From the human T2T-CHM13v2.0 reference genome, Homo sapiens, in the NCBI RefSeq assembly GCF_009914755.1, contig NC_060939.1: 64,000 nt of DNA. One strand, 5' to 3'. Made by a program: the position numbers and the translations under genes. Positions 30,494 through 48,819 of this stretch are shown one piece after another. The notes under the pieces are model-generated. The model ran no database searches. It had not been told where the DNA came from and saw only the letters and a program-made list of their open reading frames with translations. The number at the start of each line of letters is the position of its first letter. Positions within the stretch are counted from its first letter, which is position 1.

Positions 30494-31301
30494 TGATAAT
30501 AGTCTGGATACATGTCCCCACTGGATCTCAGGTTGAAATTTGATCCCTGGCTGGGTGCACTGTCTCATGCCTGTAATGAGACAGTGGGAGGCTTTGGGAG
30601 GCTGAGGCAGGAGGATCACATGAGCCCATGAGTTAGAGAGCAGGCTGCTCAACATAATGAGATCCCCGTCTCTACAAAAGAAAAATTTAAAAAGTAGCTG
30701 GTGTGGTGGTACATACCTGTAGTTCCAGCTACTGGAGAGTGTGAGGCAGGAGGATTGCTTGACCCCAGAGTTCAAGGCTGCCGTAAGCCATGATTGCACC
30801 ACTGCACTCTATCGTGGGTTAAAGAGTAAGACCTTGAAAAAAAAAAGAAAAAAGAAAGAAAGGAAATGAAAGGAAAAGGAAAGGAAAAGGAAAAGGAAAA
30901 GGAAAGGAAAGGAAAGAAAAGAGTTTTATTCCCAGTGTTGGAGGTGGGGCCTAGTGGGAAGTGTTTGGCACATCCCTCATGAATGGCTTGGTGCAGTCCT
31001 GCAGTTGAGTGAGTATAGGTTCTGTTAGTTCCATGAAAGAGCTGGTTGTTGAAAAGATCCTGATACCTCCTCCCTGCCTTCTCTTGCCTTCTTTCTTACC
31101 ATGAGATCTCTGCACATGCCAGCTCCCCTTTGCCTTCCATCATGAGTGGAAGTAGCCTGAGGCCCTCACCAGAAGGTGTGCTGGCACCATGCTTCTTGCA
31201 CAGCCCTCAGAACCCTGAGCCAAATTAACATCTTTTTTTTTCTTTCAGTAAATTACCCAGCCTCAGGTATTCCTTTATAGCAACACAAATGGACTAAGAC
31301 A
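30494..31301 (+). mobile_element. MSTB-like solo MaLR LTR interrupted by AluJ
   Basis: tgata...ttggaggtggggcctagtgggaagtgtttgg...cctcaggtattcctttatagcaacacaaatggactaagaca. 5-bp TSD gccca/accca. Confidence 0.88.
30549..30923 (+). mobile_element. AluJ with (GGAAA)n-expanded tail
   Basis: ggaggattgcttgacccc...ttcaaggctgc; purine tail at 30837-30923. Confidence 0.9.
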
Positions 31302-31589
31302 ACCCATGAACTCATCCCCTGGGTATCAGCCACTCTGTCAGGTAATGCTAACCCGGGAAAGTATGAGGATCTCCTCACAATCTGTCAGAACCTATAGCTT
31401 CAGGAAGTGGGGGATTTATTTTTCCTCACTTTTCAGGGCAAGTTTCTTCAAGTGACACTTCCGGTGAACACATGCACAGACAAATATGGGGGCAGTAACT
31501 GAGAAGGCTCCAGCTTGAAGATTAAGCTGTCATAAAGAGGAGGACAAAATCAGAAAGAAGTGTAGGAAGACTAAGCCAGTGTCCAGATG

Positions 31590-43316: not shown

Positions 43317-44471
43317 ATTTGAAAAGAGATTTTACCAAAGAAGTTAAGTGACTAGCCATTAAACACATAAAAATATTTTTCAACACTTTTATTAGGAAAA
43401 TGCAAATTAAAATGACAATGAGACTAGGCATGGTGGCTCACACCTATAATCCCAGCACTTTTGGGGGACGAGGTGGGAGGATGGCTTAAAGTCAGGAGTT
43501 TGAGGCAAGCCTGGGAAACATAGCAAGGCCCACTCTCTACAAAATTTTAAAAATTAACCAGGCATGGTGATGCAAGCCTGTACTCCCAGCTACTCAGAAG
43601 ACTGAGTCAGGAGGCTCACTTTAGCCCAGGAGGTCAAGGCTGCAGTTAACTATGATTATGCCACTGCATTCCAACCTGGGCCACAGAGCAAGATTCTGTC
43701 ACAAAAAAAAAAAAAAAAAAAAAGGAAAGAAACAAAGAAACAAAACCCCACAATGAAATACAACTACATACCTGCTAGAAGGATTAAAACTAAAAAGACT
43801 AACCATACTAAGTATTGATGAGGATATAGAGCAACCAGAATTCTTATACATTTATGATGGGAAGTAATATGTACAGTGATATTAGCAAAAGTTTGGCATT
43901 TTCTTTTAAAGTTAAACATATATTTATCACACAAACTGGAAATCCAACTTCTAGGTATTTACCTAAGAAAAATAAAAACATATGTCCACACAAAGACTTG
44001 TACACAAAAGTTCATAACTGCTTCAGTCACAAGAGCCAAAAATCTAGAAACAACCCAAATGGCTATCAATAAGAAGAGGGACTACCAAAATGTGGTATAT
44101 CCATCAAGTGGACTACTACTCCGAAATAAAATGGTAAAAACTACCGATACACATGACACCATGTATGAATCTTAAAAACATTTTGCTAAGTGAAAGAAGC
44201 CCAATACAAAAGAGTACATATATGATTCCTAAAATCATATAATATAAAATCTTATTTTATATAAAATCATTTGTATAAAATCCTAAAATGGAAAAAGGTA
44301 ACTTATAGTTACAGAAAGCAGAGTAGTAGATGCCAGGGATCAAGATTAGGGCAGGTAGAGAACAGATCCAAAGAGGCAAGAGAAAACTTTAGTGGTTGTG
44401 AAAATGGTTAATAATCTTATTTTGGGAGGCGATTGCACAGGTAAGTGTATTTGTCAAAAACCATCAAATTG
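43317..44471 (+). mobile_element. Old L1ME, part 2 (host of the NMNAT1 retrocopy; last ~65 bp at 48614-48677)
   Basis: L1ME 3'UTR ...tgtatttgtcaaaaaccatcaaattg | tagacttactatgggtgcactttatgtaaattataccccaataaagttg. Confidence 0.82.
43422..43746 (+). mobile_element. AluJ
   Basis: ggaggatggctt; ggtcaaggctgcag; flanked by acaatga on both sides. Confidence 0.9.
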
Positions 44472-44569
44472 GCTCTCTCTCACCTGCTGTCATCTAAGAC
44501 ATGGCCTTGCTTCCCTTTCACCTTCTGCCATGACTAAATTTCCTGAGGCCTCCCCAGCTATGTGGAACT
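44472..44569 (+). mobile_element. THE1 (THE1C/D-like) MaLR LTR fragment forming the 5' exon of the retrocopy
   Basis: ctctctctcacctgctgtcatctaagacatgg...cttctgccatga...tttcctgaggcctccccagctatgtggaact matches THE1 sequence downstream of the TATA region. It ends where the consensus continues GTGAGTC (splice donor) and lies inside the TSD. Confidence 0.85.
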
Positions 44570-44625
44570 ACAACAAGAGAGATGTCACAGTTTTCCATTT
44601 AGATCAACAACTTCAAGTTCTTAAC

Positions 44626-45769
<1,144 letters not shown>

Positions 45770-46692
45770 GAATTCTACAGCATGATGTTTTGGACTTCCC
45801 TTTTCGGGATTTGAAACAACCTGGGTTTTAGTAACTGGGGAAAGAAATTGTGACGCTGTTGCCTAAACTAAAGCTTAAAAGTTTAGTAAAAATCAGTGGT
45901 AAGTTAAAATCAGGGTTTTTTCCCTTTTATCAGAAATTGCTAAGATGAATTTTTTTGTATGTTTTTTTTAAAAAAAGAATGTACAATCTCTTTATCTTTA
46001 AAACAAGAGATTAGCAGCACACTAAAACCAAAAGAATTTTCAGTGAAACTAGCTATGAGTAAGAAGTCAAAAAGCAACAGCCTAGCTCTACCACATATAA
46101 GAAGTAAAGTGTGAAAAACAAAAGTTCATTGAAAATTCTAACTTTGGTTATGAAGGGAATTGACATTTTATTGATGCCTGCTGCTGGGTAATCTGCAGCT
46201 AGGGTAGACAAAGGAAGGAAATCTTACAGTGGTGATCTTGTAAAATGCACCATTGATAAATCATCTCCAGTTATGCAAAATAAAGGTTGTGAATATGCCT
46301 GGCAGAAACATTGCACCAATAGTTAGTTCTCTGTGGCACACATCAAAGTGGCCAACTAAATTTTGGCAAGACCTATCTGCCTGGAGCTTCACCTTTGGAA
46401 GAAGGGAGTGAGGTCCAAGCCCTTGTATGTTTAGAAAGGTACGCAGGTTATTTCTGATGCCCCCCAGAGGTAGAGAGCTACTGCCTTACACTCTATACAC
46501 ATTTATTTAGGCTTGTTGTGGGTTATGCTCTAGCCCTGGCCATCCGCCCTGTCTTTATCTTCAGGAACAACTTCAGAAAGGACATCAGGCTACATTGAAT
46601 CTAGAAAACCACAGAAATTGAGGGGACTCATTCAAGGATTTTATAAGTCTGAATGCTCTTAACCTTTATTGGTAGCTTAATCAAAAGACCTG

Positions 46693-46815
46693 AGTGGGGT
46701 GCAGTGGCACATGCTCAGTAATCCCATCTATTTGGGAGGCTAAGGCAGGAGGATCACTTGAGCCCAGGACTTTGAGACCAGTCTGGGCTAAATAGTGAGA
46801 ATTTGTCTTTAAAAA
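46693..46815 (+). mobile_element. FLAM/Alu monomer in the retrocopied 3'UTR
   Basis: ggtgcagtggcacatgc...ggaggatcacttgagcccagg...aatagtgaga. Confidence 0.8.
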
Positions 46816-47258
46816 CTGGAGTTTCTGAAGAACCCTGCTGTTTCTGTTTCAGCCTACTGTGAATCTGCCATTTGTGAATTTAATCAGAAAAAGGGTCTGT
46901 TTTCTTATACTTTTTTTCTTCTTGTCCTTTTGTGTGAAGTTTAACCAAAAGTAGTAGTCTCAAATAATTAGTCTTAGCTTTATGTTGAAAACACAAGCTT
47001 GTTACATAGTTTGCTACCGATTAAAATGTTGTAGAAGTTTTACCAATTTGTAAAGCAAAAAGACCGGAGATAGCTTTCTGTAGAATAGTTTTAGGGTTTG
47101 TAAAATAGTTCTATGATAGAAACAAAACTAAAGTTAAATTTCTAATGAAAATAGAATAATTTGCCTTTTGGCAATTTCTATTTTATACCTACACCACCCC
47201 AGATGAAGGGTTTGTAACTGCAGAAGAAAAAAAAAAATACTTAGAAATGTGCAACTGG

Positions 47259-47545
<287 letters not shown>

Positions 47546-47567
47546 CTACTAAAGAAATGTGCAATTG

Positions 47568-47854
47568 GGCCAGACACGGTGGCTAATGCCTGTAATCGCA
47601 GAATTTTGGGAGGCCGAGGTATGAGGAGTTCAACACCAGCCTGGGCAACATGGCGAAACGCCATCTCTACAAAAATACAAAAATTAGCTGGCATAGTGGC
47701 AGGCACCTAGAGTCCTAGCTACTGGAGAGGCTGAGATACGAGGATTGCTTGAGCTCAGGAGGCAGAGTTTGCAGTGACCTGAGATCATGCCAGTGCACTC
47801 CAGACTGGATGACAAAGCGAGACCCTCTCTCAAAAACAAAAACAAAACAAAAAC
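47568..47854 (+). mobile_element. AluJb-like with left-arm deletion
   Basis: ggccgaggtat|gaggagttc; gaggattgcttgagc. Confidence 0.88.
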
Positions 47855-48553
47855 AGAAATGTGCAATGTATAGTCAGATCTGAATCTACAGTTTGAAAGA
47901 GAAAAATGTTAAATAAAGTTAAGCTAAGACATGTGCTACCACTCCCAACTTACTCTTACTGAAACCATCAGGCCACCTCCCAAAGACAGGGAGGGAGCAA
48001 AGCCTGACACCTAGCATGTTTCAGGATCCATCTGCCAAGTGAATGAAAGGTTGGAATCTCAAATCCTAGAAAATCTCAAATCCTAGAGTTCAAAGTTGTT
48101 TTTCTCCTCTTTGGCTTTTTGCAGTTTAAGAGTTGAAGTAGCCCTAAAAAATAATGATTGAGCAAGATGAAGCTATCAGAAATGAACTTTGATTTTTTCT
48201 CGGGAACTATACCTAGTTCATCGGAAGTGTTGTGTAAACTGCATAAAGGTTCCACTGCTACAAATCTCTCTCATACTGTCATGCCTTCCTGCTTAGAAGT
48301 GCCTGTTCCCTGCTCAGCTGTGACTCTACTGACCTCAGGACATCACTGGACAAGGCATGTGGGAATCCTTGCAGGAGCCCTGGTAATAATGAAATGGAGC
48401 AACAATTTTGTAGAAAGAATGAGCTGCTTGGCTTTTTCTCCCAGTGCTGAGGATGCTGTTGATGCCGCCTCATAATAGCGTAGTTTTGGGTGTCATCAAG
48501 GACAGAACTTCCCCTTTGAATAATGGAAATTAGAACAATGACCTTCACAGGGG

Positions 48554-48559
48554 AATAAA
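48554..48559 (+). terminator. Poly(A) signal of the retrocopied NMNAT1 mRNA
   Basis: AATAAA about 27 nt upstream of the decayed A tail and the 3' TSD. Confidence 0.75.
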
Positions 48560-48819
48560 TATTAATGACTGATATGACTTTCTTTAAGGAAGAAGGAAAA
48601 AATCATCAAATTGTAGACTTACTATGGGTGCACTTTATGTAAATTATACCCCAATAAAGTTGATTTTAAAAATAAAATCTGAAGAAACAATGAATTCAGA
48701 ATTAAACAGCATATTGAACACAGCTGGAGAAAGAAGTAGCATACCGGAATATCAATCACTGGGAGTTACTCAGAATGTAACACAGAGACAAGGAGATCAA
48801 AAATATTAAAGAATTTAAG

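What the first reader, a model, noticed from the sequence alone, without database searches (positions are those of the whole stretch)
44456..44640. NMNAT1 retrocopy begins with a THE1 LTR exon spliced to exon 2: fossil of an LTR-promoted NMNAT1 isoform
Seen in the sequence: inside the 16-bp TSD, the insert starts with 98 nt of THE1-type LTR (44472-44569) ending ...cagctatgtggaact. It is followed immediately by acaacaag..., exactly 56 nt before the NMNAT1 ATG (44626). Recalled knowledge: THE1 LTRs continue ggaact|GTGAGTC, a functional splice donor. NMNAT1 exon 2 starts at c.-56 with ACAACAAG. MaLR LTRs act as alternative promoters and first exons in oocytes and early embryos, and some are DUX4-activated. 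Inference: both sides of the junction fall on splice boundaries, and only the transcribed part of the LTR is present. The template was therefore probably a spliced mRNA that started in a THE1 LTR at the parent locus and skipped the canonical exon 1. Because the copy was inherited, the isoform must have been present in the germline or early embryo. This points to a possibly undescribed LTR-driven NMNAT1 (nuclear NAD+ synthesis) transcript in simian primates.
Basis: partly seen in the sequence, partly recalled or inferred. Interest (0 to 1): 0.92.

Follow-up and report, generated by a model that had tools for sequence, protein, structure and literature searches.

The report
NMNAT1 pseudogene starting with LTR exon
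This dead copy of the NMNAT1 gene was made from an old messenger RNA that began inside a retrovirus-like repeat and was spliced onto NMNAT1 exon 2, but that repeat is no longer found near the human NMNAT1 gene.

Summary
A 16-bp target-site duplication (15 of 16 identical; 0 of 200 shuffles match it) brackets a 4.1-kb NMNAT1 retrocopy, 44472-48597. RefSeq annotates only 44570-45385.

The first 98 nt are a piece of a THE1/MST-group MaLR LTR.
- The piece starts 23-35 nt after the LTR's A/T box in 21 of 29 genomic copies.
- It ends where 23 of 29 copies continue with GT (17 with GTGAGT).
- The next base is the first base of NMNAT1 exon 2, which follows an AG acceptor in the parent gene.

Both sides of the junction are splice sites, so the template was almost certainly a spliced LTR-NMNAT1 mRNA.

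BLAST finds no such LTR from 145 kb upstream to 25 kb downstream of exon 2. Three exact 17-mer cores, at least one present in 28 of 29 known copies, put the nearest sense copy about 0.93 Mb upstream.

The promoter LTR was therefore most likely lost or never fixed. Trans-splicing remains possible. Other primates could not be examined.

This is a new example of known phenomena and of moderate interest. No paper linking NMNAT1 to an LTR was found.

The parts
44456..44471 (+). 5' target-site duplication (AAAAACCATCAAATTG)
   Evidence: 15 of 16 identical to 48598-48613. It is the only such pair between the two flanks, and 0 of 200 shuffles gave one.
44472..44569 (+). 98-nt LTR-derived first exon of a THE1/MST-group ERVL-MaLR, running from about the LTR start site to its splice donor
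   Evidence: Non-self genomic copies are 83-88% identical. Full LTR copies match only over their positions 251-348. An A/T box lies 23-35 nt upstream of the piece start in 21 of 29 copies. GT follows the piece end in 23 of 29.
44570..44743 (+). NMNAT1 exon 2, with 56 nt of 5'UTR and the ATG at 44626
   Evidence: 90% identical to C1:9515080-9515254. The parent has ...tttgtag immediately before ACAACAAG.
44744..45239 (+). NMNAT1 exon 3, interrupted by a later Alu insertion (about 44807-45128) that has its own roughly 17-nt target duplication
   Evidence: 44738-44811 and 45115-45239 match C1:9518655-9518832. The Alu and its flanking repeat were read.
45240..45385 (+). NMNAT1 exon 4
   Evidence: 45238-45387 matches C1:9524092-9524238 at 88.7%.
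45386..48585 (+). NMNAT1 exon 5: end of the coding region (stop about 45767) and the 3'UTR. It includes two Alus (47215-47508, 47564-47864) and AATAAA at 48554-48559.
   Evidence: 45381-45894, 47999-48386 and 48394-48572 match C1:9525362-9527625. The sequence was read.
45895..47258 (+). 3'UTR stretch kept by the retrocopies but missing from today's parent gene
   Evidence: 45895-46690 is found in 4 of 4 other retrocopies and 46811-47214 in 3 of 4. The only match at the NMNAT1 locus is 49 nt in the intron between exons 3 and 4.
48586..48597 (+). Short, decayed A-rich tail
   Evidence: Parent and copy align to about 18 nt past AATAAA and then diverge. The copy continues with an odd CTTTCTTT and then A/G-rich sequence up to the duplication.
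48598..48613 (+). 3' target-site duplication (AAAAATCATCAAATTG)

Best explanation
NMNAT1P5 is an L1-made processed pseudogene copied from a chimeric, spliced mRNA. Transcription began at or near the start site of a THE1/MST-group MaLR LTR. The LTR's own GT donor, just after GGAACT, was spliced straight to the normal acceptor of NMNAT1 exon 2, bypassing all canonical 5' exons. The mature mRNA (LTR exon, exons 2-5 and the full 3'UTR) was reverse-transcribed into chr15 in the germline or early embryo of an ancestral primate. The copy's divergence from the parent is about 0.11, similar to the other four NMNAT1 retrocopies. The promoter LTR is not at the human NMNAT1 locus today. Most likely it sat in intron 1 or upstream of the gene and was later deleted, or it was a young insertion allele that never became fixed. 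Shown: the anatomy and both splice boundaries. Inferred: the cis location and later loss of the LTR.
For: - The insert is bounded by a significant 16-bp duplication that includes the LTR piece.
- The LTR piece ends exactly where 23 of 29 genomic copies have GT and 17 of 29 have GTGAGT.
- The next base is the first base of exon 2, which in the parent follows an AG acceptor.
- The piece starts 23-35 nt after an A/T box in 21 of 29 copies.
- No other part of the LTR is present in the window.
- Exons 2-5 are joined without introns, and the copy ends about 18 nt after the parent's AATAAA.
- The other four retrocopies carry normally spliced canonical 5' exons. GT follows all three exon ends in the parent; only exon Y has a spliced-in 5' end, and AG precedes it. 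NMNAT1 retrocopies therefore record real 5' isoforms.
- Franke 2017 (PMC5538554, passages read) states that MaLR LTRs carry a start site, a donor near the 3' end of the LTR and sometimes an AUG.
- The parent locus has changed since: about 1.36 kb of 3'UTR kept in the retrocopies is gone from it. Loss of an LTR is therefore plausible.
- The piece is as similar to genomic copies (mean 87.3%) as they are to each other (86.7%). This fits an LTR that was young when it was transcribed.
Against: - No LTR of this group, in either orientation, lies in C1:9370001-9540000.
- No sense copy with any of three exact cores lies between C1:8580645 and exon 2.
- The best genomic matches to the piece are on other chromosomes or far away on chr1.
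- The start-site position rests on spacing from an A/T box found with my own loose pattern, not on start-site mapping data.
- The poly(A) tail is short and decayed and is preceded by an odd CTTTCTTT.
- No other primate genome and no RNA data could be examined.
Confidence: 0.6

Rival explanations
1. Trans-splicing: an LTR-initiated RNA from another locus donated its first exon to NMNAT1 pre-mRNA, and the product was retrocopied.
For: It would give the same exact donor-acceptor junction. No source LTR is near NMNAT1 in this genome. The closest copies, L002 and L006 at 87-88%, share three variants with the piece (read by eye) and lie at C1:148.1 Mb and C16:76.8 Mb.
Against: From general knowledge, inter-locus trans-splicing is rare in mammals. 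The three shared variants also occur in other copies (5 of 29 and 7 of 29 for two of them), and the copies compared were chosen for similarity. The private 1-nt insertion of the piece is found nowhere else in the genome.
Confidence: 0.12
2. The template came from a duplicated, intron-containing NMNAT1 copy that lay downstream of an LTR and has since been lost.
For: All five retrocopies carry 3'UTR sequence that the present gene lacks. The template gene therefore differed from today's locus.
Against: No trace of a second intron-containing NMNAT1 exists: exon 2 has 7 matches, namely the window copy, 4 retrocopies and the parent's exons 2 and 3. A deletion in the single parent explains the 3'UTR difference more simply.
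Confidence: 0.08
3. Cis-splicing from an LTR still in the genome but missed: 0.93 Mb or more upstream, or too decayed to detect.
For: Sense copies exist at C1:8580645, 8389736 and 8269293. C1:8580645-9370000 was screened only by exact 17-mers.
Against: A first intron of 0.9 Mb or more crossing several genes is unlikely. 28 of 29 known copies hold at least one of the three cores, although those copies were chosen for similarity. The BLAST set detects a 68-89% identical fragment in the window.
Confidence: 0.08
4. L1 reverse transcriptase switched templates from NMNAT1 mRNA to an unrelated LTR transcript during insertion (a Buzdin-type chimeric retrogene, recalled).
For: Two RNA sources lie inside one duplication and one tail. 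No LTR is near the parent.
Against: The switch would have to leave NMNAT1 exactly at the first base of exon 2 and enter the LTR RNA exactly at its donor. These are two independent single-base coincidences in about 4 kb and about 0.4 kb.
Confidence: 0.04
5. There was no chimeric RNA: a 5'-truncated retrocopy landed next to an older LTR fragment.
For: None beyond adjacency.
Against: The duplication encloses the LTR piece. The flanks on both sides are not LTR. There is no repeat of the sequence before 44570 at the 3' end.
Confidence: 0.02

Closest known systems
LTR-initiated chimeric transcripts from MaLR LTRs in oocytes and zygotes (Franke et al. 2017, PMC5538554; passages read)
   Same: The LTR supplies the promoter, the start site and a first exon that ends at the LTR's own donor and is spliced to a host exon. 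An AUG can lie in the LTR exon.
   Different: Here there is no RNA and no LTR at the host locus. The only record is a retrocopy, and the tissue is unknown beyond germline or early embryo.
THE1-family LTRs as alternative promoters: THE1B for CSF1R and THE1D for WNT5A in Hodgkin lymphoma (PMC6558280; abstract and passages read)
   Same: Same LTR group acting as an upstream promoter for a spliced host transcript.
   Different: Those LTRs are present in the genome and act in tumour cells. This one is absent from the human locus and acted in an ancestral germline.
DUX4-bound MaLR LTRs forming new first exons (Young et al. 2013, PMC3836709; passages read)
   Same: Primate MaLR LTRs form first exons of annotated genes in testis and DUX4-expressing cells.
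   Different: NMNAT1 does not occur in that paper's main text (0 occurrences). No DUX4 site can be assessed, because the promoter part of the LTR is not in the retrocopy.
Retrocopies as records of how parental genes were transcribed (e.g. PMC7692494; search listing and start of abstract only)
   Same: A retrocopy preserves the exon structure of an old transcript.
   Different: Here the preserved first exon comes from a repeat that the parent locus no longer has.
Template-switch chimeric retrogenes (Buzdin and colleagues; recalled, not read here)
   Same: Two different RNAs lie within one L1-type insertion.
   Different: As recalled, the junctions in those chimeras do not fall on splice sites. 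Here both sides do.

Membership tests
L1-mediated processed pseudogene | Exons joined without introns | tested here: met
   Exons 2, 3, 4 and 5 of C1:9515080-9527625 are contiguous in the window apart from later Alu insertions.
L1-mediated processed pseudogene | Target-site duplication flanking the insert | tested here: met
   16 bp, 15 of 16 identical, 0 of 200 shuffles. It begins with a run of A, as at L1 endonuclease sites (read; the site preference is recalled).
L1-mediated processed pseudogene | Poly(A) tail after the parent's polyadenylation site | tested here: inconclusive
   Homology ends about 18 nt after AATAAA. What follows is CTTTCTTT and then about 12 nt of A/G-rich sequence running into the A-run of the duplication.
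ERVL-MaLR LTR, THE1/MST group | Belongs to a dispersed LTR family with many copies | tested here: met
   1664 candidates for the 98 nt. 13,094 places match the 34-mer 3' core plus donor with at most 3 mismatches. Copies show TG...CA ends.
ERVL-MaLR LTR, THE1/MST group | Subfamily assignment (THE1A-D, MSTA, MSTB and so on) against a repeat library | not testable with these tools
   No Dfam, Repbase or RepeatMasker was available.
LTR-initiated chimeric gene transcript | First exon ends at the LTR splice donor and joins a canonical host acceptor | tested here: met
LTR-initiated chimeric gene transcript | 5' end at the LTR transcription start site | tested here: inconclusive
   The piece starts 23-35 nt after an A/T box in 21 of 29 copies. 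Three copies fall outside that range, and 5 have no box by my loose pattern; in 3 of these an Alu tail sits there. No start-site mapping data were used.
LTR-initiated chimeric gene transcript | A sense-oriented LTR upstream of the host exon at the host locus | tested here: not met
   None in C1:9370001-9540000. The nearest sense core match is 0.93 Mb upstream. Only this human genome was tested.
LTR-initiated chimeric gene transcript | RNA evidence for the junction | not testable with these tools
   No transcriptome data were available.
Template-switch chimeric retrogene | Junction set by the reverse transcriptase rather than by splice sites (feature as recalled) | tested here: not met
   Both sides of the junction are splice sites.

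The most novel reading that the evidence does not exclude
The retrocopy is a fossil of inter-locus trans-splicing in an ancestral primate germline. An LTR-initiated RNA from another chromosome donated its first exon to NMNAT1 pre-mRNA. This would explain why no source LTR lies within about 0.9 Mb upstream of the human gene. A milder version, which I think more likely (about 0.45), is a 'ghost' promoter: the pseudogene is the only surviving record of an LTR insertion at NMNAT1 that was later deleted or never fixed. Its exon carried an in-frame ATG 22 codons upstream of the NMNAT1 start.
Probability: 0.12. Interest if true: 0.7.

Novelty: new member of a known kind. Interest (0 to 1): 0.42.

Why it matters
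This is a clean case of a processed pseudogene acting as a record of an old LTR-driven transcript of a housekeeping NAD-synthesis gene.

Because the LTR is absent from the human parent locus, the pseudogene may be the only remaining evidence of a past promoter insertion. That possibility can be tested directly by looking at the NMNAT1 locus in other primates.

It also shows that the RefSeq span of NMNAT1P5 covers only about a fifth of the retrocopy. In addition, the parent gene has lost part of its old 3'UTR.

It does not point to a present-day human NMNAT1 isoform.

Tried and rejected
**Searching further upstream of NMNAT1**
Only C1:9370001-9540000 was read base by base.
- The stretch from 8.58 to 9.37 Mb was screened only by exact 17-mers.
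- A 34-mer with up to 3 mismatches gave 13,094 places but only 100 were listed. It could not be used to screen the region.
- A 37-place pattern was rejected as too long.

**Looking for the source LTR by private indels**
- The 29-mer holding the 1-nt insertion is unique to the window.
- The 26-mer holding the 2-nt deletion has 64 places, none on the short arm of chr1.
- Neither identifies a source.

**Other dead ends**
- The first alignment of LTR copies mixed strands and was redone.
- I first thought, from memory, that the piece was MST rather than THE1. I dropped this because no repeat library was available to test it.

**Paper searches**
- NMNAT1 with the whole word LTR gave 10 papers, 9 listed. 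None is about an LTR-driven NMNAT1 transcript, judged from titles and abstract starts.
- The NMNAT1P1-P5 names gave 5 papers, all gene lists or association studies by their titles, with 0 occurrences of NMNAT1P5.
- In the wider term mixes, none of the 20 listed papers held NMNAT1.
- Supplementary tables of embryo or oocyte chimeric-transcript papers were not searched. They could list NMNAT1 in other species.

Full report
**What is in the window**

The window is chr15:57722001-57786000 of T2T-CHM13 (G000:C15).

AAAAACCATCAAATTG sits at 44456-44471 and AAAAATCATCAAATTG at 48598-48613. This is the only 16-mer pair with at most one mismatch between the two flanking zones, and 0 of 200 shuffles produced any.

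Between them lies an NMNAT1 retrocopy.
- Exons 2, 3, 4 and 5 of the parent gene (G000:C1:9515080-9527625) are joined without introns.
- A later Alu sits in exon 3 at about 44807-45128, with its own target duplication.
- Two Alus lie in the 3'UTR.
- AATAAA is at 48554-48559. Homology to the parent ends about 18 nt later, followed by a short decayed A-rich tail.

The copy therefore runs from 44472 to 48597. RefSeq's NMNAT1P5 (44570-45385) covers only its first fifth and omits the LTR piece.

**The 98-nt head**

44472-44569 is a repeat. The genome search gave 1664 candidates, of which 40 were scored; non-self hits were 83-88% identical. The aligned copies are LTRs of the THE1/MST kind, beginning TGATATGG and ending CTAATACA. 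A 34-mer covering the LTR's 3' core plus donor has 13,094 places with at most 3 mismatches.

Five full-length copies align to the window only over their own positions 251-348. Neither the promoter part nor the LTR tail is present, and the flanks outside the duplication are not LTR.

In 29 genomic copies:
- The bases after the position of the window's last LTR base are GT in 23 and GTGAGT in 17. Six copies lack GT.
- An A/T box (TTTAAAAG or similar, found with my own loose pattern) begins 23-35 nt before the position of the window's first LTR base in 21 copies.
- Three copies fall outside that range. Five have no box by my pattern, and in three of those an Alu tail sits there.

Franke et al. 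2017 state that MaLR LTRs carry a start site, a splice donor near the 3' end of the LTR and sometimes an AUG (PMC5538554, passages).

I could not assign a subfamily. Zuo 2023 reports that MSTB, MSTA and THE1A-D are found only in simians (PMC10735291, passages).

**The junction**

Base 44570 starts ACAACAAG, 56 nt before the ATG at 44626. In the parent the same ACAACAAG is preceded by ...ttcctttgtag. Both sides of 44569/44570 are therefore splice boundaries.

The other four NMNAT1 retrocopies (C3:192983011, C14:75244682, C4:148773411, C1:163688718) carry canonical 5' exons instead. These map to C1:9485759-9485930, 9486346-9486419 and 9487722-9487854. In the parent, GT follows all three exon ends. 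Only the third exon, which I call exon Y (C1:9487722-9487854), has a spliced-in 5' end, and AG precedes it. NMNAT1 retrocopies thus record real 5' isoforms, and this one records a different isoform.

A reverse-transcriptase template switch would need two independent single-base coincidences. A landing beside an old LTR fragment is excluded by the duplication. I put about 0.85-0.9 on a spliced LTR-exon 2 mRNA as the template.

**Where the LTR came from**

- BLAST of the 98 nt against C1:9420001-9540000 gave nothing better than 15 nt at E=1.2.
- BLAST of the 98 nt plus five full LTR copies against C1:9370001-9540000 (145 kb upstream to 25 kb downstream of exon 2) gave only two 27-nt hits at E=0.001 in one place, for one query.
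- As a control, the same queries find both the 98-nt piece and a second, 68-89% identical LTR fragment at 31114-31302 in the 64-kb window.

I therefore screened with three exact 17-mer cores, at least one of which is present in 28 of 29 known copies. Those copies were chosen for similarity, so this sensitivity is optimistic.

| Core | Nearest places on chr1 around exon 2 (9515080) |
|---|---|
| A | + strand at 8269293 and 8389736, then 12108618 |
| B | only a minus-strand copy at 8987442, then 10398638 |
| C | + strand at 8580645, then 18015065 |

The nearest sense copy is thus 0.93 Mb upstream.

The piece's private 1-nt insertion occurs nowhere else in the genome. Its 2-nt deletion form occurs at 64 places, none on the short arm of chr1.

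**Reading**

The LTR most likely lay at the NMNAT1 locus when the retrocopy was made and was later deleted, or it was a young allele that never became fixed.

- The parent has demonstrably changed since. About 1.36 kb of 3'UTR (45895-47258) is missing from the parent, where C1:9525888 abuts an Alu. Its first part is kept in 4 of 4 other retrocopies and its second part in 3 of 4.
- The piece is as close to genomic copies (mean 87.3%, 29 comparisons) as they are to each other (86.7%, 405 pairs). This fits an LTR that was young when it was transcribed, with the same selection caveat.
- The Kimura two-parameter distance (K2P) from copy to parent is 0.114 over 975 columns. The other four retrocopies give 0.112-0.145.

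Trans-splicing, a lost duplicate gene and a missed distant LTR remain possible.

**Literature**

- NMNAT1 with the whole word LTR: 10 papers, 9 listed, none on an LTR-driven NMNAT1 transcript by title and abstract start.
- The NMNAT1P1-P5 names: 5 papers, with 0 occurrences of NMNAT1P5.
- Wider term mixes: none of the 20 listed papers held NMNAT1.
- Supplementary tables were not searched.

**Verdict**

This is a new example of two known things: LTR first exons, and retrocopies as transcript fossils. The twist is that the promoter LTR is gone from the human gene. Interest is moderate.

Noticed in passing
window 45895-47258; parent G000:C1:9525888: About 1.36 kb of NMNAT1 3'UTR is present in this retrocopy. 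Its first part (45895-46690) is also in 4 of 4 other retrocopies and its second part (46811-47214) in 3 of 4. It is absent from the present NMNAT1 gene, where the breakpoint abuts an Alu. The parent seems to have lost it after the retrocopies were made.
   Followed up: partly
L032-L035 (C3:192983011, C14:75244682, C4:148773411, C1:163688718) and C1:9485759-9487854: The other four NMNAT1 retrocopies keep different canonical 5'UTR exon combinations. Call the exons 1a (C1:9485759-9485930), 1b (9486346-9486419) and Y (9487722-9487854). L033 has 1a+Y+2, L034 has 1b+Y+2, and L035 has 1a+2. L032 has Y+2 plus an upstream piece that only looks like 1b by eye. In the parent, the donor of exon Y is followed at once by an Alu.
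   Followed up: partly
window 44560-44628: The LTR exon's last ATG (44560) is in frame with the NMNAT1 ATG (44626), 22 codons upstream, with no stop between. The parent's exon-2 leader is also open in that frame. The chimeric mRNA could have encoded an N-terminally extended NMNAT1. By rough reckoning this would arise by chance about 1 time in 8.
   Followed up: no
window 44570-45385 versus 44472-48597: The RefSeq NMNAT1P5 span covers only the first fifth of the retrocopy. It omits the LTR exon, the end of the coding region and the 2.8-kb 3'UTR.
   Followed up: yes
window 31114-31302 (+): A second, more diverged fragment of the same LTR group (68-89% identical to genomic copies).
   Followed up: no
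L002 (C1:148114528), L006 (C16:76828540), L005 (C1:70342152): In 3 of 29 LTR copies an Alu poly(A) tail sits exactly at the LTR's A/T box. L002 and L006 are 99% identical over the 99 nt compared and share flanks by eye in the alignment, so one appears to be a duplicate of the other on a different chromosome.
   Followed up: no
window 46006-46054; C1:9522156-9522204: A 49-nt stretch of the retrocopy-only 3'UTR matches the NMNAT1 intron between exons 3 and 4 at 92%. This is unexplained.
   Followed up: no
window 47238-47870: Two adjacent Alus are each flanked by the same AGAAATGTGCAA word, which occurs three times. This suggests either two hits at one site or a tandem duplication.
   Followed up: no
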